Source: an uncultured delta proteobacterium (GTDB lineage Bacteria; Desulfobacterota; Binatia; Binatales; Binataceae). Taken from it: DNA of 64,000 nt. Location: NCBI GenBank assembly GCA_963765675.1, contig CAVXXK010000001.1, forward strand, positions 2,208,001 to 2,272,000, given 5' to 3'. The notes beneath the pieces were generated by a model. It was not told the origin of the DNA. It made no database searches and saw only the letters and a list, made by a program, of their open reading frames with translations. Of the stretch, positions 47,348 through 51,569 are shown one piece after another (the first letter of the stretch is position 1; each line of letters begins with the position of its first letter). The position numbers and the translations under genes are program-made.

Positions 47348-48949
47348 TTACAGAACCTCTTCGATTTTGCGGCTCACGCTCGACGATCCCATCGGTCCGG
47401 AAACCCATCCTGCGAACACCGCCGAGAATTTTCCGGCCTCGCCGCCCGCAACGATCATATTAATATACTCCGGACGGCGGAACTTCGGAATTTTCGCCTC
47501 GAGCTGCTCGGGTGTCGGGTTCACCAACCCCAGCGCACGCGGGGACACGCCCTCGGCGCTATCTGCGTCGGGAAGGAGCTCGCGAATCGGCCGCGAAGTC
47601 ACTTCCTGGATGCGCGCGCGCACCTGATCCTTGCTCCATTTCTCGCGCGCGATCGTGTCGGCGTGCTCGGGGCATACCACCAGCAGAACCTCGCCCGCGC
47701 CGTGCTGTTTCGGATGCCAGCAGGCTTCGAGTCCCATTCCGAGCGACCCGACCAGAGCGCGCGCGGTGCGCGAAACCTGGTCCGCAATCTGGCGCGAGCC
47801 GGCTTCGAGCCCGAACACCGTCACCACACTGTCTTCGCGCGCGAAGCCGCGCTCGACGTGCAGGGGTTCCCACGGGCTGCGTTCTTCCCACTCGGCGAAG
47901 CAGGTGGTGAACTTGCCGATCGCGCCCATCGTCGAGCGCTCGATATCACCCGGCCGCGCGCCGCCCAGGTTGCGCAGCACCAGTTTAAGTGCGCGTCCGA
48001 TGGTAGCGTTGGCGCGGGTACCGTAGCCCAGCGCCATCATCGCCATGTTCATGCCGATTCGTTTGCGAATCGGACCGCTCACCACGATCACCGGGGTCGC
48101 GCCCCACGTCGTCGCCATCACGCCATGAATATTGAACTGGTCGGTGCAAACCGCTTCCAGAGCTGCCGTCACGACCGGCAGATACTCGGGACGGCATCCC
48201 GCCATCACGGCGTTGACGGCGATTTTCTCGATCGTTACCGGCGCGAGGTTCGGCGGCGCGATCGCGACCACCTCGCGCGGGTCGCGCCGCGTCCCGGTCA
48301 GCATCCACGCGACGCGTTCGGGGGTCGGCGGCACGACCGGCAGTCCGTCGGTCAATCCGCGCTCGAACATGAATTCGAAGACATCCTCGCCTTCGCCGAG
48401 TTCAATCTGCCGTGCCTGCATCCTCTCGCCGCGCGCCTCGGCCGCGAGACGTTCGGCGATTCCAGGTTCGACTGATCTCGAGCCGCATCCGGCGCGCAGT
48501 TTGGGGATCGTCTCCCAATCCATTTCCGGAGCGGGCTCTCCGGTGAGTTCCGCGAGCTTGGCCGCGAGCGTCTTCCAGTCGTCGCGCGCGAGACCGACGG
48601 ATTCAGAAATAAGAGCGCCGCCGCCGTCGGCCATGATGATGGTCGGCACGGTATCGAGGTCGTAGGCGAATGAAACCGCGAGCGCCGAGTCGTCGAGCAT
48701 CGGGCACGAAAGGGCGAAACGTTCGGCCAGCGCGCGATTTCCCGCAGCCTCTTGCCCGATCGCGAAAATATCGGCCTTCGCGCCAAAAGCGCGATGCATC
48801 TTCTCGATAATCGGAATCGTCGCGACGCAGGTCGGGCAGTCTTCCTTGACGAAGCACAGCAGAGCGGGGCGTCCGGTGGGAAAAGCGCGCTCAGCGCCGT
48901 CGAGCGCGACGAGTTTGAAAGCCGGAATTTTTTCGCCGATCTCAAACAT
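47348..48949 (-). CDS. Thioredoxin-like (CPTC) domain fused to an uncharacterised UGSC-partner domain
   Basis: N-terminal TlpA/AhpC-like FVKEDCPTC, linker GCGS, C-terminal LTDGLPVVPPT, NAVMAGC, RANATIGRA and EWEERSPW. Confidence 0.8.
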   Translation of the reverse strand: MFEIGEKIPAFKLVALDGAERAFPTGRPALLCFVKEDCPTCVATIPIIEKMHRAFGAKADIFAIGQEAAGNRALAERFALSCPMLDDSALAVSFAYDLDTVPTIIMADGGGALISESVGLARDDWKTLAAKLAELTGEPAPEMDWETIPKLRAGCGSRSVEPGIAERLAAEARGERMQARQIELGEGEDVFEFMFERGLTDGLPVVPPTPERVAWMLTGTRRDPREVVAIAPPNLAPVTIEKIAVNAVMAGCRPEYLPVVTAALEAVCTDQFNIHGVMATTWGATPVIVVSGPIRKRIGMNMAMMALGYGTRANATIGRALKLVLRNLGGARPGDIERSTMGAIGKFTTCFAEWEERSPWEPLHVERGFAREDSVVTVFGLEAGSRQIADQVSRTARALVGSLGMGLEACWHPKQHGAGEVLLVVCPEHADTIAREKWSKDQVRARIQEVTSRPIRELLPDADSAEGVSPRALGLVNPTPEQLEAKIPKFRRPEYINMIVAGGEAGKFSAVFAGWVSGPMGSSSVSRKIEEVL

Positions 48950-49013
48950 CAAAGCTATGCCAAGGACACAATGCTCCCGAGACGCCCCGCGCGTCGAGCG
49001 GGCGCGATTCGAT

Positions 49014-50312
49014 TCAATTGGCGGCGGAGACGGGTGCCGCGGGCGTATCCGATCGCTCGAAGCGATGGCGCGAGGGTGAATAGAACGAGACCGACGAGGT
49101 TACTTTGCCGTTCTGGTCGAATCCGCCGGCGATCATGACGTCGCCGTCAGGCAGCAGCGTAGCGGAGTTCAATAGCCGGCCGACGTGGAGTGGGCCCACG
49201 CTTTGGTATTCGCCCGGCGTTCCCGGAGTAAATTCTTCGGCGTCCATCATTCCAACGATCACGTTGCCCTGGATGCGCCATCCTCCGACCACCAGCACGT
49301 TGCCGTTTCCGAGCAGCGTCGCGGTAGCAAGGTAGTGTGGCACGCGCATCGGCGCGGCGGGAAGGAAGGTCAAGGTTTCAGGATCGAAAAATTCCGAGGT
49401 GTCGAGCGGGGTGAAGGAGGCGATGTTTCGCGCGCCCGGTCCGTACAGGACCTTGCCGCTCTTGCCGCCGATGATCAGCGCCTTGCCGGTGTCGAGCAGC
49501 ACCGCGGCGGCGCCGACGCGATCGCTGCGCATGCGATCCGCGATAGCGGTGAAGCGTCCGGTCGTGGGATCAAATATCTCTGCGTTCTGATACGAGATAT
49601 AGCCGCCCGGCATACCGCCGCGTCCCCCGCCCGCGATCAGAACCTTGCCGCTTCCAAGCAACACCGCGACGTGCGCCTCGCGCGGGACAGTCATATGCCC
49701 GGCGGACAACCATCGGCCGGCAGATGGATCGTAAATCTCCGCGCTGTCGATCGTGACCGTCCCGTTGCTGCTGCCGCCGGTGACGAGCACCCGGCCGTCG
49801 CGCAGGAGCGTGGCGGTATGGCCCTCGCGCGCGACCGACATCGGGGCGGTACTGGTAAACGCTCCGCTTGAGGGATCATAGAGCTCGGCGCTCGAGAGTG
49901 CGGTGCGAAAGCCTATATTCCGCTGGCCGCCGACGATCAGCACCTTTCCGCTTTGCAGAACGGTTGCGGTCTGGCCCATCCGCGCGACACTCATCGATCC
50001 GGTCGCCGAGAAAGTCTGCGTTGCGGGATCGAAAATCTCTGCGGAAGAGAGGACGCCGCCGACATTTCCGTTAACAGTGCCTCCGCAAATCAGGACCCGT
50101 CCATCCGTCAGCTCCGCGGCCGCATGGTTAGCGCGCGGCGATGTCATCGCGAGCTCCTGCACCTGATCGCCGAGCGAATTGGTGAACACCACCGGCTGCT
50201 CCGTGATCGGCTCGGTGCATCCTGCGAGCATCGCGAGCGCGGCGAGCGCGAATATTGCGGCTGCGCCGCGCGCAAGAATCATCTTGGCGAGATCTATCCT
50301 GGATACGCGCAT
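49014..50312 (-). CDS. Kelch-repeat beta-propeller lipoprotein
   Basis: Lipobox LAMLAGC and about seven repeats of R..H.A.LL.DG.VL..GG...SAE.YDP. Confidence 0.87.
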   Translation of the reverse strand: MRVSRIDLAKMILARGAAAIFALAALAMLAGCTEPITEQPVVFTNSLGDQVQELAMTSPRANHAAAELTDGRVLICGGTVNGNVGGVLSSAEIFDPATQTFSATGSMSVARMGQTATVLQSGKVLIVGGQRNIGFRTALSSAELYDPSSGAFTSTAPMSVAREGHTATLLRDGRVLVTGGSSNGTVTIDSAEIYDPSAGRWLSAGHMTVPREAHVAVLLGSGKVLIAGGGRGGMPGGYISYQNAEIFDPTTGRFTAIADRMRSDRVGAAAVLLDTGKALIIGGKSGKVLYGPGARNIASFTPLDTSEFFDPETLTFLPAAPMRVPHYLATATLLGNGNVLVVGGWRIQGNVIVGMMDAEEFTPGTPGEYQSVGPLHVGRLLNSATLLPDGDVMIAGGFDQNGKVTSSVSFYSPSRHRFERSDTPAAPVSAAN

Positions 50313-50346
50313 AAGAATCGGAATCCTTTTCTCTACGACGGTTGAG

Positions 50347-50925
50347 CTAGCGCGATTTGAAGCCCCGTGCGAGCGTGTTCATCGCAGCCCGCAGGAACAT
50401 CGCGCCCGGCCAGATTGTATGCTTGCGAACTTCGCCGGAGACCGGGCGGCTCGCGGCAAGATCGATTACCGCCGCTGCGACTCCCGACGGCACTGCGCGG
50501 CTCGCGTGGCTTTCCGCCACGCTCCAGCGCACGCGCAGCTCGCGATCGATGATGAACGACGCGGGGAATGCGATATCGCCCTCGCTATGATTGACGAGAC
50601 CCCACGCGGTGATTGCCTTGCGCTCGGTATCGCACAGAACGTGGAAGGGCAAATTGAGGTCGCGTTTCATTCCGGACGCCTGGTCGATCCGATCCACGGA
50701 AATCGCGGCGAGGTCAGCGCCAACCGCACGGATTTTTTCATACTCGCGCGCATAATCCGCCAACTGGCGAAGGCAGAACGGTCACCAATGCCCTCGGTAG
50801 AAAACCACCACGCAAAATCCGCCCGCCGCGAGCTCACCGAGCCGGCGCGATCTTCCGTCGGTGTCGGGAAGTGCGATATCGGGAACCGTCTCGCCCATCG
50901 CAGGCGGATGCTGCTGCTCGTCCAT
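50347..50925 (-). CDS. Selenocysteine-containing AhpC/TSA (peroxiredoxin-like) protein, UxxC motif (Sec at TGA 50782-50784)
   Basis: ATG 50925 opens MDEQQ..GETVPDIALPDTDG..VVFYRGHW-TGA-PFCLRQL, in frame with ORF 50347..50763 (AISVD, LCD, PASFIID). Confidence 0.88.
50756..50771 (-). promoter_or_regulatory. Putative bacterial SECIS hairpin
   Basis: UUCGCC-AGUU-GGCGGA. The loop begins 16 nt after the UGA, with G at loop position 2. Confidence 0.6.
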
Positions 50926-51104
50926 CGCGCGATTCTATCGGCCACGCGCAACTCTGTCATTATCCAATCTGGCGGATCCGGGGCCTCCAAGCGGACGGGA
51001 TTTGCCGATTGAAGTCGTCGTTCTACCTGCCCCTGGGGCTCGTATCGGCGAGCGGTTTCCCGTCCCAATCCTCGAACCGCTCCTCGATCGTCAAGCCGGT
51101 GGGT

Positions 51105-51569
51105 CTATCGACGCCTGCCAGTTCGTCCGGGTCCGCCAAACCATTCGATGCGTATGCGAAGCGCGGTAGCGGCTTTCGCGAATGTGTCATCGGCGGTGGC
51201 GACGGTATCCGCTCCGATATCGGTCGCGATCGCCAAATGAAGCGCGTCGAGCGTCCGGAGCGGGATTGAGGCGAGACGGATCAGAATATCGCCGGCGCCG
51301 ATGGCGTGCCGATCTTCGAGCGCATGTATCTCGAGGAATCCCTGCGCGATATCGCTTTCGAAGGCTCGTGCCACCCTGTGCTCCGCCGCGGCATCGATGT
51401 CCCGGTTCCGGCGGCGGCGTCCCAGCAGGCACCGCAGCTCGACCATCGTGAGACGGCTGATTGATACCGAGGTCAGGCGTCCCAGGAATCGGTCGAACTC
51501 TTCCGATCCTGCTTCGCGCAGATAGCGTTTGGCCAGAGCGCTGGTGTCGATATAGATGGCGCTGCTCAG
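51105..51569 (-). CDS. vapC: VapC-family PIN-domain toxin
   Basis: IYIDTSALAKRY...E...LRTLDALHLA..ATAD. It needs a CTG start overlapping the antitoxin stop. Confidence 0.88.
   Translation of the reverse strand: MSSAIYIDTSALAKRYLREAGSEEFDRFLGRLTSVSISRLTMVELRCLLGRRRRNRDIDAAAEHRVARAFESDIAQGFLEIHALEDRHAIGAGDILIRLASIPLRTLDALHLAIATDIGADTVATADDTFAKAATALRIRIEWFGGPGRTGRRR

What the first reader, a model, noticed from the sequence alone, without database searches (positions are those of the whole stretch)
50347..50925. Peroxiredoxin-like selenoprotein with a W-U-P-F-C active site
TTC TAC CGA GGG CAT TGG TGA CCG TTC TGC gives FYRGHW-U-PFC. This matches the FYRGxWCPxC signature of AhpC/TSA-like redoxins, with TGA at the first Cys. 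The 47 codons upstream of the TGA encode the expected N-terminus (GETVPDIALPDTDG). A hairpin with an AGUU loop lies 16 nt downstream.
Basis: partly seen in the sequence, partly recalled or inferred. Interest (0 to 1): 0.75.

Follow-up and report, generated by a model that had tools for sequence, protein, structure and literature searches.

The report
Unannotated selenocysteine redoxin gene, Binataceae
This is a real but unannotated selenoprotein gene: a peroxiredoxin-fold enzyme of an uncultured soil bacterium that carries selenocysteine in a U-P-F-C redox site, and it belongs to an already known kind of bacterial selenoprotein.

Summary
On the minus strand, 50925..50347 is a 192-codon frame with one in-frame TGA (50784..50782), reading FYRGHW-U-PFC. 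It is an AhpC/TSA-fold protein (Pfam 1.6e-25).

The TGA is not an error or a pseudogene:
- All 80 of the best related loci in named genomes carry it, as do 76 of 79 classifiable metagenome loci.
- Four full-length homologues have Cys at that position.
- dN/dS is 0.08-0.40 on both sides of the TGA.
- A 6-bp hairpin with an AGUU loop, 11-26 nt after the UGA, meets all four published bSECIS criteria. Its four codons are the most synonymously frozen of 43 conserved columns.
- selB, a TGA-containing selD and two tRNA-Sec(UCA) genes are present.

One caveat: selA carries a 1-nt insertion in this assembly only.

The active site is thioredoxin-like (UxxC plus a Pro where peroxiredoxins have Arg), not a canonical peroxiredoxin site. 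It fits the known "Prx-like thiol:disulfide oxidoreductase" selenoprotein family. This soil clade (Binataceae, Acidobacteriota) is miscalled as truncated ORFs in the public databases.

The parts
50347..50925 (-). Coding sequence of the selenoprotein (192 codons including Sec48; ATG 50925..50923, stop TAG 50349..50347)
   Evidence: Translation. Pfam AhpC-TSA 1.6e-25 and Redoxin 2.5e-17. dN/dS 0.08-0.29 upstream and 0.14-0.40 downstream of the TGA. An in-frame stop lies 3 codons upstream of the ATG.
50782..50784 (-). Sec codon UGA (residue 48)
   Evidence: TGA in the same column in 14 of 14 orthologues, in 80 of 80 named-genome loci and in 76 of 79 classified metagenome loci. Cys in P0016-P0019. 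One 151-nt independent contig spans it with 0 differences.
50773..50784 (-). U48-P49-F50-C51 redox motif (UxxC)
   Evidence: U48 aligns with the first Cys of the ResA WCPHC motif and with the Thr of the Prx TxxC motif. C51 aligns with the Prx peroxidatic Cys. W47, U48, F50 and C51 are invariant in 34 sequences. The motif sits at the N-terminus of helix 49-67 in the model.
50756..50771 (-). bSECIS-type hairpin: 6-bp stem (nt 11-16 / 21-26 after the UGA) and AGUU apical loop (nt 17-20; window 50765..50762)
   Evidence: MFE -8.1. 514 of 516 stem cells paired in 86 distinct sequences, against 19-66% with slid partners; loop AGUU in 85 of 86. Codons +5 to +8 have the lowest synonymous diversity of 43 columns. 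Criteria taken from the passages of PMC13188914 read.
50932..50960 (-). Sigma-70-like promoter match ATGACA-17 nt-TAGAAT, ending 6 nt before the ATG (possibly a leaderless mRNA)
   Evidence: 10 of 12 matches; 2 sites found against 0.6 expected in shuffles. The upstream DNA stays similar in same-genus orthologues (upstream read-through translations). This is a consensus match only, not shown to be functional.
50368..50409 (-). Conserved C-terminal tail helix (residues 173-186, ...PGAMFLRAAMNTLARG...)
   Evidence: Helix 173-186 in the AF2 model, with low confidence (block pLDDT 57-51). P173, A180, N183 and G188 are nearly invariant in 34 sequences. The tail lies outside the Pfam domain, which ends at residue 134-139.
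49014..50312 (-). Downstream same-strand neighbour: Kelch beta-propeller protein, 432 aa, N-terminus ...LAMLAGC (lipoprotein-like)
   Evidence: Pfam Kelch_1/4/6 at 1e-30 to 1e-31. N-terminus printed. A Kelch homologue lies within the downstream flank in 47 of 80 loci, 46 of them on the same strand within about 0.03-1 kb of the redoxin match (L072: opposite strand).
47348..48952 (-). Second downstream neighbour: 534-aa protein with an N-terminal thioredoxin-like domain (CPTC motif) and about 400 aa of unknown domain
   Evidence: Weak Redoxin/AhpC-TSA match over residues 5-112, below the Pfam cut-offs. Sequence with ...KEDCPTCV... printed. The Atlas look-alikes are 'AhpC/TSA + hypothetical' clusters. 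It co-occurs with the redoxin in Binataceae-type loci.

Best explanation
Window 50925..50347 (minus strand) encodes a genuine selenoprotein. It is a cytoplasmic, peroxiredoxin-fold (Bcp/PrxQ-like) thiol:disulfide oxidoreductase whose redox centre is Sec48-Pro-Phe-Cys51.

Decoding. During translation the in-frame UGA is read as selenocysteine by Sec-tRNA(UCA) delivered by SelB. SelB would be recruited by the mRNA hairpin that starts 11 nt downstream (6-bp stem, AGUU loop). That hairpin lies inside the codons for L-R-Q-L-A-D.

Chemistry. Sec48 sits at the N-terminus of helix 49-67, like the attacking Cys of thioredoxin, ResA or TlpA. It would attack a substrate disulfide or another oxidised sulfur or selenium species. 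Cys51 then resolves the intermediate into an intramolecular selenenylsulfide, and a thioredoxin-type reductant regenerates the enzyme.

Shown here: the gene, the conserved UGA, selection on both halves, the RNA-level constraint on the hairpin, the Cys homologues, the presence of the machinery, the fold, and the active-site mapping.

Inferred: actual Sec insertion, SelB binding, the substrate, the reductant, and any role for the conserved C-terminal helix or for the co-located Kelch lipoprotein and CPTC-domain protein.
For: (1) Single in-frame TGA in a 192-codon AhpC/TSA frame.

(2) TGA conservation. It is in the same column in 14 of 14 orthologues from related genomes, at 39-99% identity. In genus g1, 10 of 11 genomes, the own genome included, have a full-length copy with one TGA; the 11th holds only a contig-end fragment. 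All 80 of the best loci from named genomes carry TGA. So do 76 of 79 classifiable metagenome loci, with 1 locus unclassified.

(3) Cys homologues P0016-P0019 (192-197 aa) read FYRG[HY]WC[PA]FCLRQL.

(4) Purifying selection on both sides of the TGA: dN/dS 0.08-0.29 (N part) and 0.14-0.40 (C part) in 9 pairs.

(5) Hairpin criteria. All four bSECIS criteria quoted in PMC13188914 (passages read) are met: loop of 4 nt, stem of 6 bp, G at loop position 2 followed by U, 16 nt between UGA and loop, MFE -8.1.

(6) RNA-level constraint. In 107 non-identical Sec orthologues, the 4 codon columns with the lowest synonymous entropy of 43 conserved degenerate columns are exactly codons +5 to +8: CAG 106/106, TTG 107/107, GCG 105/105, CGC 94/107. 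TTG is only 9.4% of Leu codons in this genome.

(7) Stem changes preserve pairing: 514 of 516 cells paired, with C-G to U-G in 10 and 17 distinct sequences and one C-G to G-U change on both sides. A distant subfamily member (L158) keeps an AGUU hairpin with A-U at two pairs that are C-G and G-C here. Paralogous subfamilies have different stems at 16-25 nt spacing.

(8) The three Cys forms with DNA in hand have best hairpins of -2.4, -5.0 and -1.7 kcal/mol, all short of the -7.5 criterion.

(9) Machinery. selB is over its cut-off. selD is over its cut-off and has its own TGA. Two tRNA-Sec(UCA) genes score 72 and 70 bits against RF01852 and have G73 and an 8/5 architecture.

(10) TGA is an ordinary stop here. 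The Kelch neighbour ends in TGA, and 4 neighbouring genes have no in-frame TGA.

(11) Fold and site. The AF2 model has pLDDT 86.6. The top Foldseek hits are Bcp4, BcpB and AhpE. The sequence and profile alignments map U48 to the first Cys of the ResA CxxC motif and P121 to the position of the Prx Arg.
Against: selA in this assembly is split between two frames. The cause is a 1-nt insertion plus two substitutions within 4 nt at G000:C1:~1402599, relative to two same-genus genomes, and only one selA locus was found. If that is real and not an assembly error, this strain could not make Sec and the UGA would terminate translation.

There is no protein-level or RNA-level evidence of expression.

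The hairpin criteria are weakly discriminating in this 61% GC genome: about 10% of background TGA-plus-motif sites pass a similar filter, and the 66-nt fold is not more stable than shuffles.

The Cys-form control rests on only 3 loci. One of them (L153) still has the 4-bp core of the hairpin.

The 107-sequence set was selected for TGA, so it says nothing about TGA frequency.

The oxidoreductase chemistry is inferred from active-site homology only.
Confidence: 0.85

Rival explanations
1. It is a selenoprotein, but it works as a peroxidase. Sec48 (or Cys51) is oxidised directly by H2O2 or organic hydroperoxides, as in Sec-peroxiredoxin (TxxU) or glutathione peroxidase, rather than exchanging disulfides.
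For: The overall fold is closest to the Bcp/PrxQ/AhpE peroxiredoxins (profile E-values 1e-25 to 8e-20 against 2cx3, 2ywn, 3hjp and 5epf). C51 aligns with the peroxidatic Cys. That selenolates react fast with peroxides is established chemistry (recalled, from no call).
Against: Three of the four canonical Prx active-site residues are replaced: Pro by R44, Thr by U48 and Arg by P121. The site instead reproduces the thioredoxin/ResA arrangement of W-C-P-x-C plus a Pro in the facing loop. The literature files UxxC PF00578 selenoproteins as 'Prx-like thiol:disulfide oxidoreductase', separate from Prx with TxxU.
Confidence: 0.2
2. In this particular strain the gene is functionally dead. selA is frameshifted, no Sec-tRNA is made, and translation stops at codon 48. 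On this reading it is a very recent loss of the Sec trait.
For: selA matches in two different frames (residues 2-267 and 264-443 of the model). There is a 1-nt insertion relative to G009 and G005, and it is not in a homopolymer. No second selA locus was found.
Against: selA is in a single frame in 4 of 5 close relatives (G005, G009, G003, G018); in the fifth (G001) it lies on two contigs. This genome's selD still carries its own TGA in an open frame. selB and both tRNA-Sec genes are intact. The redoxin gene is undamaged and 93% identical to its G009 orthologue. A single indel in a metagenome-assembled genome (16 contigs, 4.3% contamination) is more simply an assembly error.
Confidence: 0.1
3. 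The UGA is decoded as something other than Sec. One route would be Cys inserted by a Sec-tRNA-mimicking tRNA-Cys (selC*) opal suppressor. The other would be Trp or Gly under a reassigned genetic code.
For: The genome has two selC-like genes. selC* tRNA-Cys opal suppressors were described in 'delta-proteobacteria' (PMC5389517, abstract and passages read). Homologues carry Cys at this position.
Against: Both tRNAs have G73 and an 8/5 architecture and differ from each other by 1 nt. selC* is defined by U73 and an 8/4 architecture. TGA ends the neighbouring Kelch gene and is absent in frame from 4 neighbouring genes, so there is no genome-wide reassignment. A hairpin frozen at synonymous sites is what SelB-dependent decoding needs.
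Confidence: 0.03
4. The TGA is a sequencing or assembly error for TGC/TGT, or the locus is a decaying nonsense pseudogene.
For: Only the generic possibility of a base error in a MAG. The read-level evidence is thin: one 151-nt contig at depth about 2 spans the codon.
Against: The same TGA is found in 80 of 80 named-genome loci and in 76 of 79 metagenome loci, from many independent assemblies. dN/dS is well below 1 on both sides. The one spanning contig agrees at every base.
Confidence: 0.01

Closest known systems
Prx-like thiol:disulfide oxidoreductase selenoproteins (PF00578, UxxC/UxxU; 'Prx-like 1' of the GOS selenoproteome)
   Same: It shares the Pfam domain (PF00578, over cut-off), the UxxC motif with Sec first, bacterial origin and a SECIS immediately downstream in the coding region. 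The family is listed in PMC13188914 as 'predicted with high confidence'. PMC2398784 Table 2 gives 225 Sec and 2,740 Cys sequences. PMC1794560 tables list it in Geobacter, Syntrophus and Desulfotalea. Only the passages and tables returned by the 'find' look-ups were read.
   Different: I could not align it to the published exemplar, because no sequence was available to me by accession. This clade has a conserved C-terminal extension of about 40 residues with a helix and an invariant CLRQL segment that doubles as the SECIS. In my samples it is almost always Sec, whereas Cys forms dominated in GOS. It comes from Binataceae and Acidobacteriota soil MAGs. My literature searches found no paper linking Binatia or Binatota to selenoproteins, within the held library only.
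ResA / TlpA-type thiol-disulfide oxidoreductases (CxxC, thioredoxin fold)
   Same: The W-C-P-x-C active-site context aligns residue for residue with ResA WCPHC (profile E 2.8e-16 against 3c71). The facing-loop Pro is kept (P121, nearly invariant).
   Different: ResA and TlpA are exported or membrane-anchored and use Cys. This protein shows no obvious N-terminal signal peptide in the translation (judged by eye) and uses Sec. Its overall fold matches Bcp-type Prx better. The NCBIfam ResA score of 37 is far below the cut-off of 170.
Bcp/PrxQ and AhpE peroxiredoxins; Sec-peroxiredoxin PrxU
   Same: These are the best structural matches: 3hjp, 5epf, 1xvw and 4x1u at TM 0.65-0.70 normalised to the query. 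C51 is equivalent to the peroxidatic Cys.
   Different: The catalytic Pro, Thr and Arg are not conserved. In PrxU-type selenoproteins Sec replaces the peroxidatic Cys (TxxU), whereas here Sec sits three residues earlier (UxxC). The NCBIfam PrxU score is 25.5 against a cut-off of 270.
SelL-related redox protein (NCBIfam NF040769) / eukaryotic SelL (UxxU, Prx-like)
   Same: It is the best NCBIfam hit (2.7e-11) and shares a Prx-like scaffold with a Sec-containing xxC/xxU motif (SelL is called 'a Prx-like protein' in PMC2398784).
   Different: The score of 43.4 bits is far below the curated cut-off of 120, so it is not a member. It has one Sec, not two.
E. coli fdhF-type bacterial SECIS
   Same: It is a stem-loop in the coding region directly after the UGA, with G then U in a small apical loop at the consensus spacing (criteria from the passages read; measured).
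   Different: It is a minimal element: 6 bp, a tetraloop, and spacing at the lower limit of 16 nt. No bulged U was identified. SelB binding was not tested.

Membership tests
Bacterial selenoprotein gene (SelB/SECIS-dependent UGA decoding) | In-frame UGA conserved among orthologues, with coding constraint on both sides | tested here: met
   14/14, 80/80 and 76/79 carry TGA. dN/dS is 0.08-0.40 on both sides.
Bacterial selenoprotein gene (SelB/SECIS-dependent UGA decoding) | Homologues with Cys aligned to the UGA position | tested here: met
   P0016-P0019 have WC[PA]FC. L129, L153 and L160 have TGC or TGT.
Bacterial selenoprotein gene (SelB/SECIS-dependent UGA decoding) | bSECIS consensus: apical loop 3-9 nt and upper stem 4-16 bp; G in the first two loop positions; 16-37 nt between UGA and loop; MFE <= -7.5 kcal/mol (PMC13188914) | tested here: met
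   Loop AGUU (4 nt, G at position 2, followed by U), 6-bp stem, 16-nt spacing, MFE -8.1. Specificity is low in this genome: about 10% of background sites pass a similar filter. The weight therefore rests on the synonymous-site freezing.
Bacterial selenoprotein gene (SelB/SECIS-dependent UGA decoding) | Genome encodes selB, selC (tRNA-Sec UCA) and selD | tested here: met
   selB scores 328.6 bits (356.9 with its neighbours in the frame) against a cut-off of 242. selD scores 375 bits with 1 TGA. Two tRNA-Sec genes score 72.4 and 70.3 bits against a gathering score of 47 and have anticodon tca.
Bacterial selenoprotein gene (SelB/SECIS-dependent UGA decoding) | Genome encodes an intact selA | tested here: inconclusive
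   selA is present (358.9 + 194.2 bits) but lies in two frames, owing to a 1-nt insertion relative to G009 and G005. It is in a single frame in 4 of 5 relatives and on two contigs in the fifth.
Bacterial selenoprotein gene (SelB/SECIS-dependent UGA decoding) | Sec actually incorporated (75Se labelling or a Sec peptide by MS) | not testable with these tools
   No proteomic or RNA data were available. No RNA run was listed.
Prx-like thiol:disulfide oxidoreductase selenoprotein family | PF00578 (AhpC/TSA) domain | tested here: met
   89.8 bits against a cut-off of 26, residues 11-134.
Prx-like thiol:disulfide oxidoreductase selenoprotein family | UxxC (or UxxU) redox motif | tested here: met
   U48-P-F-C51, invariant in 34 sequences. 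The family definition comes from the tables read.
Prx-like thiol:disulfide oxidoreductase selenoprotein family | Sequence relatedness to the published exemplars (e.g. the Geobacter protein cited in PMC13188914) | not tested
   The exemplar sequence could not be fetched by accession with these tools.
Canonical peroxiredoxin (Prx/AhpC/Bcp) | Active-site Pro and Thr of PxxxTxxC | tested here: not met
   R44 and U48 occupy these positions in the alignments to 2ywn, 2cx3 and 5epf.
Canonical peroxiredoxin (Prx/AhpC/Bcp) | Peroxidatic Cys | tested here: met
   C51 aligns with the Cys of ...vC t k E... in 2ywn and 2cx3.
Canonical peroxiredoxin (Prx/AhpC/Bcp) | Conserved catalytic Arg before the F-[IV]-[IV]-D strand | tested here: not met
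   The family consensus 'akPavFvid' aligns with 'akRavFvid' or 'akRavFiv' in the three top chains that have Arg at that column (2cx3, 2ywn, 3hjp). P121 is nearly invariant.
NCBIfam SelL_rel_redox (NF040769) and peroxi_PrxU (NF040737) | Score at or above the curated cut-off | tested here: not met
   43.4 against 120 bits, and 25.5 against 270 bits.
selC* tRNA-Cys opal suppressor (for the two selC-like genes) | U73 discriminator and 8/4 acceptor/T architecture (PMC5389517) | tested here: not met
   Both genes end ...G-CCA (G73) and are drawn 8/5 by ARAGORN.

The most novel reading that the evidence does not exclude
This is not just one more Prx-like selenoprotein. It would be the founding member of a distinct, almost obligately Sec-dependent clade that is abundant in soil bacteria (Binataceae, Acidobacteriota and others). 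The clade is marked by a conserved C-terminal helix. In Binataceae it is wired into a conserved module with a Kelch lipoprotein and a CPTC-thioredoxin-fold/unknown-domain protein. That would be a selenium-dependent redox pathway of unknown substrate, invisible in current annotation because every public gene call truncates it.
Probability: 0.3. Interest if true: 0.5.

Novelty: new member of a known kind. Interest (0 to 1): 0.3.

Why it matters
Three practical points follow.

1. The gene and its orthologues are miscalled in public protein sets as 107-139-aa 'peroxiredoxins' that start after the UGA and lack the active site (14 of 20 hits). The best NCBIfam match is well below its cut-off, so automatic annotation probably keeps missing them.

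2. FYRGxW-U-PxC genes are frequent in the metagenome contigs scanned here and in Binataceae and Acidobacteriota MAGs. This suggests that selenium use by uncultured soil lineages is under-counted. My searches of the held library found no paper on selenoproteins in Binatia or Binatota.

3. The family offers a very clean minimal SECIS: 6 bp plus an AGUU loop, frozen at synonymous sites in 107 sequences. It could serve as a benchmark for bSECIS predictors.

None of this changes current understanding of Sec biology. The kind of protein, motif and decoding signal are all as expected.

Tried and rejected
- **Single-sequence fold of 66 nt around the UGA.** z = -0.29, so it is not informative. I relied on comparative analysis instead.
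- **Naive genome-wide selenoprotein scan.** It looked for an in-frame TGA with open flanks, a loose redox motif and a bSECIS-like hairpin. It returned 334 hits of 3,341, essentially all noise from wrong-frame open stretches in a GC-rich genome. I use it only as a background rate.
- **Second 'redoxin with 1 TGA' in the own genome (C6:70370-70831).** It is a canonical Bcp (FYPAASTPGCTVE) whose TGA is simply its stop codon, so it is not a selenoprotein.
- **Third ARAGORN 'tRNA-SeC' (C3:212119-212202).** It is absent from the Rfam RF01852 hit list and has a poor cloverleaf. I treat it as spurious.
- **Second SelB-like hit (C1:2293546-2294415).** At 187 bits and covering only the GTPase part in a 424-aa frame, I take it for EF-Tu. 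That is inference and was not checked.
- **Expression.** No RNA holder was listed, and only Logan contigs were available, so nothing can be said about transcription.
- **Read-level check.** Only one contig (X3, 151 nt, depth 2.3) spans the TGA. It may come from the same campaign as the assembly. The parts of the gene without cover in X1-X4 mean nothing.
- **Cys-form control.** I hoped for many Cys orthologues with DNA, but the metagenome scan gave only 3.
- **Alignment A1 as a locus query** was rejected by the tool as too divergent. I used A2 instead.
- **Hydrophobic-moment calculation for the C-terminal tail.** 'Amphipathic' is therefore only my reading by eye of the sequence printed.
- **Complex prediction** with the Kelch or 534-aa neighbour was not run, because I make no binding claim.
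- **The search of earlier findings** returned nothing for this genome.
Full report
**1. What is in the sequence.**

Window 50925..50347 (minus strand) translates as one 192-residue frame. It has a single in-frame TGA at codon 48 (50784..50782): MDEQQHPPAMGETVPDIALPDTDG...VVVFYRGHW-U-PFCLRQLADY...WPGAMFLRAAMNTLARGFKSR, ending at TAG. An in-frame stop lies three codons upstream of the ATG.

Standard ORF calling splits the frame into a 47-aa piece and a 138-aa piece. Public databases show the same split. Of 20 related proteins found, 14 are 107-139-aa fragments that start after the UGA, several of them named 'peroxiredoxin'. The opposite-strand ORF 50179..51012 has no Pfam match.

**2. Family and lineage.**

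Read with Cys for Sec, the protein matches Pfam AhpC-TSA (1.6e-25) and Redoxin (2.5e-17). No NCBIfam model reaches its cut-off. The best is 'SelL-related redox protein' at 43 bits against 120, and PrxU scores 25.5 against 270.

The closest named records are MAGs labelled Candidatus Binataceae, Binatus or 'uncultured delta proteobacterium', at up to 93% identity. Weaker orthologues are labelled Acidiferrales, Terriglobia, Acidobacteriaceae, Gemmatimonadales, Dormiibacterota, Bryobacterales and Gamma-/Pseudomonadota. The own genome (G000) is 4.5 Mb in 16 contigs, about 61% GC, 95.6% complete and 4.3% contaminated.

**3. Is the TGA real and translated?**

- A six-frame search of 41 related genomes found a match at E <= 1e-10 in 35. 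Full-length orthologues with exactly one TGA occur in 10 of the 11 genomes of the genus, the own genome included. The eleventh (G008) has only a contig-end fragment that does not reach the site. Orthologues also occur in 4 of the 14 sampled genomes from other genera of the family (G016, G018, G021, G023), at 39-52% identity.
- In a codon alignment of these 14 sequences the TGA is in the same column in all 14. One of the 14 (L029, genome G010) is flagged unpublished. Nothing depends on it.
- In the scan of one genome per species, 469 stretches encode a relative. All 80 of the best carry TGA: 79 by my pattern, plus L121 with AYRGDW-U.
Of the best 80, 76 have TGA, 2 have TGC, 1 has TGT and 1 could not be classified.
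- Four full-length database proteins (P0016 from Sandaracinus amylolyticus, and P0017-P0019) have Cys at this position, in FYRG[HY]WC[PA]FCLRQL.
- Nei-Gojobori dN/dS in nine pairs is 0.08-0.29 for the 47 codons before the TGA and 0.14-0.40 after it. Both halves are therefore maintained as protein in one frame.
- TGA is otherwise an ordinary stop here. The next gene ends in TGA, and four neighbouring genes have no in-frame TGA.
- At the read level, only assembled contigs of four metagenome runs were available. One 151-nt contig (depth about 2) spans 50719-50869 without a difference. That is weak support and may not be independent.

**4. The SECIS.**

The sequence after the UGA is CCGUUCUGCC-UUCGCC-AGUU-GGCGGA. 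This gives a 6-bp stem at nt 11-16 and 21-26, a loop at nt 17-20, and an MFE of -8.1 kcal/mol.

The bSECIS consensus quoted in a 2026 review (PMC13188914; passages read) has four criteria:
- a loop of 3-9 nt and a stem of 4-16 bp;
- a G in the first two loop positions, mostly followed by G or U;
- 16-37 nt between the UGA and the loop;
- an MFE of -7.5 kcal/mol or lower.

All four are met, with the spacing at the lower limit.

On their own these criteria are weak in this genome. About 10% of background TGA sites with a loose redox-like motif pass a similar filter (334 of 3,341), and the 66-nt fold is no better than shuffles.

The decisive evidence is comparative. I collected 108 orthologous coding sequences from 113 loci, 107 of them non-identical. 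They were selected for the motif with TGA, so they say nothing about TGA frequency. Among 43 codon columns that are at least 90% conserved in amino acid and degenerate, the four with the lowest synonymous entropy are exactly the hairpin codons: Gln+6 CAG 106/106, Leu+7 TTG 107/107, Ala+8 GCG 105/105, and Arg+5 CGC 94/107 with CGT 12 and CGG 1. TTG is only 9.4% of Leu codons in this genome. In the other conserved Leu columns it is used in 4-12 of about 100 sequences.

Across 86 distinct 36-mers, 514 of 516 stem cells pair, against 19-66% when the 3' partner is slid by 1-3 nt. The loop is AGUU in 85 and GGUU in 1. The changes seen keep the pairing: C-G to U-G at two pairs, one G-C to G-U, and one C-G to G-U with both sides changed. 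Only the second pair from the base of the stem (nt 12-25) is broken, in 2 sequences.

More distant FYRGxW-U-PxC subfamilies carry different stems at 16-25 nt spacing, with AGUU, AGUUA, GGU, GGC or GUC loops. One (L158) keeps the same AGUU hairpin with A-U at two pairs that are C-G and G-C here.

The three Cys-form loci have best hairpins of only -2.4, -5.0 and -1.7 kcal/mol. In L129 the Leu codon is CTG and Ala is replaced. This fits release from RNA constraint, but n = 3, and L153 still has the 4-bp core.

**5. Sec machinery.**

- selB: 328.6 bits, or 356.9 with its C-terminal piece, in one 679-aa frame.
- selD: 375 bits, with its own in-frame TGA, adjacent to selB.
- tRNA-Sec: two genes, C1:720121-720216 (-) and C1:835479-835574 (+), score 72.4 and 70.3 bits against RF01852. 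They have anticodon UCA, differ by one base, and have G73 and an 8/5 acceptor/T architecture. That excludes the U73, 8/4 selC* tRNA-Cys opal suppressors described by Mukai et al. (PMC5389517; abstract and passages read).
- selA is the weak point. It is found once, in two frames: model positions 2-267 and 264-443. Aligned to two same-genus genomes, G000 has one extra base plus two substitutions within 4 nt at about C1:1402599, just before the FSGDKLLGG motif. selA is in a single frame in G005, G009, G003 and G018, and on two contigs in G001. I regard an assembly error as most likely, at roughly 85-90%. I could not inspect the reads.

**6. What the protein is.**

The AlphaFold2 model, built on a 34-sequence alignment, has mean pLDDT 86.6 and pTM 0.82. 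Residues 10-160 are above 85-90. Foldseek's best PDB matches are the Bcp/PrxQ/AhpE peroxiredoxins 3hjp, 5epf and 1xvw/4x1u, with query-normalised TM of 0.65-0.70.

The active site is not a peroxiredoxin site. The sequence and profile alignments give this mapping:

| Peroxiredoxin residue | Residue here |
|---|---|
| Pro of PxxxTxxC | R44 |
| Thr of PxxxTxxC | U48 |
| Peroxidatic Cys | C51 |
| Catalytic Arg before the F-V-I-D strand | P121 (nearly invariant) |

The same segment aligns residue for residue with ResA G-T-W-C-P-H-C. U48 lies at the N-terminus of helix 49-67.

Invariant residues in 34 sequences include R44, G45, W47, U48, F50, C51, L52, R53, Q54, L55, S76, V77, D78, D99, N112, E115, G116 and R143.

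I therefore read it as a thioredoxin-type UxxC thiol:disulfide oxidoreductase on a Prx scaffold. Sec48 is the attacking residue, Cys51 is the resolving one, and a selenenylsulfide is the oxidised state. This is inference from homology. A peroxidase function is the main functional rival.

A conserved tail (residues about 160-192; P173, A180, N183 and G188 nearly invariant) is predicted as a helix at 173-186, but with low confidence and no confident docking. Its role is unknown.

**7. Context.**

A sigma-70-like match (ATGACA-17-TAGAAT, 10 of 12) ends 6 nt before the ATG, and no Shine-Dalgarno sequence is evident, so the mRNA may be leaderless.

Downstream on the same strand lie two genes. The first is a 432-aa Kelch beta-propeller with a lipoprotein-like N-terminus (...LAMLAGC), 34 nt after the stop. 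The second is a 534-aa protein with an N-terminal thioredoxin-like CPTC domain and about 400 residues without a Pfam match. Upstream are a PIN-domain ORF and a thiolase.

A Kelch homologue lies in the downstream flank in 47 of the 80 named-genome loci. In 46 of them it is on the same strand, within about 0.03-1 kb of the redoxin match. By label, that is 46 of 52 Binataceae- or 'delta'-labelled loci and 1 of 28 loci with other labels. The 534-aa gene follows where the 3-kb flank reaches it. Some contigs end early, so absences are soft.

The linkage is thus lineage-specific. It suggests a shared redox function but does not show one. The Atlas look-alikes of the 534-aa protein are uncharacterised 'AhpC/TSA + hypothetical' clusters.

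**8. Comparison with what is known.**

Bacterial selenoproteins with PF00578 and a UxxC motif are long established as predictions. Three papers bear on this; for each I read only the passages and tables returned by the 'find' look-ups.
- 'Prx-like thiol:disulfide oxidoreductase' is listed in Geobacter, Syntrophus and Desulfotalea (PMC1794560).
- 'Prx-like 1' in the Global Ocean Sampling data has 225 Sec and 2,740 Cys sequences (PMC2398784, Table 2).
- The family is listed as 'predicted with high confidence' in a 2026 review (PMC13188914).

The present gene meets the two features given there for the family (PF00578, UxxC). I could not align it to the published exemplars.

What is specific to this clade:
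- the C-terminal tail;
- the invariant CLRQL segment that encodes the SECIS;
- near-exclusive use of Sec in the samples I drew;
- its home in Binataceae and Acidobacteriota MAGs;
- the lack of correct annotation.

Searches for Binatia + selenocysteine and for Binatota + selenoprotein returned no paper. A search for selenoproteome + soil + Acidobacteria returned 5 papers, none of which, by title and abstract start, describes this family. These searches cover only the held library.

**9. Verdict.**

The finding is a real, correctly diagnosed selenoprotein gene, a new and unannotated member of a known kind. It has a textbook-like minimal SECIS and one strain-level caveat (selA). It is useful for annotation and for estimates of the soil selenoproteome, and it would not surprise a specialist.

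Noticed in passing
G000:C1:1401804-1403124 (outside the window; loci L001/L002): selA is split between two reading frames by a 1-nt insertion plus two substitutions within 4 nt at about C1:1402599, relative to two same-genus genomes. It is in a single frame in 4 of 5 relatives checked and on two contigs in the fifth. This is either an assembly error or a very recent loss of Sec synthesis.
   Followed up: partly
G000:C1:720121-720216 (-) and C1:835479-835574 (+): There are two tRNA-Sec(UCA) genes about 115 kb apart that differ by a single base in the D-arm. Both have G73 and an 8/5 architecture. I recall, from no call, that duplicated selC is uncommon in bacteria. I did not look at what flanks each copy.
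   Followed up: partly
window 47348-48952 (-): A 534-aa protein has an N-terminal thioredoxin-like CPTC domain and about 400 residues without any Pfam match. It is 71-95% identical across Binataceae loci where most of its length lies in the flank, far more conserved than the adjacent selenoprotein (42-50% in most of the same loci). Its Atlas look-alikes are uncharacterised 'AhpC/TSA + hypothetical' clusters in Acidobacteriota, Pseudomonadota and Actinomycetota.
   Followed up: partly
window 49014-50312 (-): A Kelch beta-propeller protein (432 aa) with a lipoprotein-type N-terminus (...LAMLAGC) is syntenic with the selenoprotein in 46 of 52 Binataceae- or 'delta'-labelled loci. A cytoplasmic-looking redoxin paired with an exported propeller is an odd combination.
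   Followed up: partly
window 50932-50960 (-): A promoter-like ATGACA-17-TAGAAT match ends 6 nt before the start codon, with no Shine-Dalgarno sequence, so the selenoprotein mRNA may be leaderless. The upstream DNA stays similar in same-genus orthologues.
   Followed up: no
metagenome loci L159-L208 (e.g. L167-L190, L159-L166, L174-L197): At least half a dozen further FYRG[HY]W-U-P[FYIV]C subfamilies appear (…MRQLREFA, …RKQLASLA, …NSELRG/S, …RSELQGLQ, …RGQLGELQ). Each has its own hairpin 16-25 nt after the UGA, often again with an AGUU or GGU loop. Sec forms outnumber Cys forms 76 to 3 among the 79 classified.
   Followed up: partly
window 51105-51446 (-): A PIN-domain ORF (113 aa, Pfam 4.7e-06) lies between the thiolase and the selenoprotein. 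It is present in only 2 of 93 related loci, which represent one other genome fetched twice, so it looks like a recent insertion. No antitoxin partner was looked for.
   Followed up: no
G000:C1:995003-997912 (-): selD (itself with an in-frame TGA) and selB are adjacent on the same strand, forming a compact Sec-machinery locus. selA and the two selC genes lie elsewhere on the contig.
   Followed up: no
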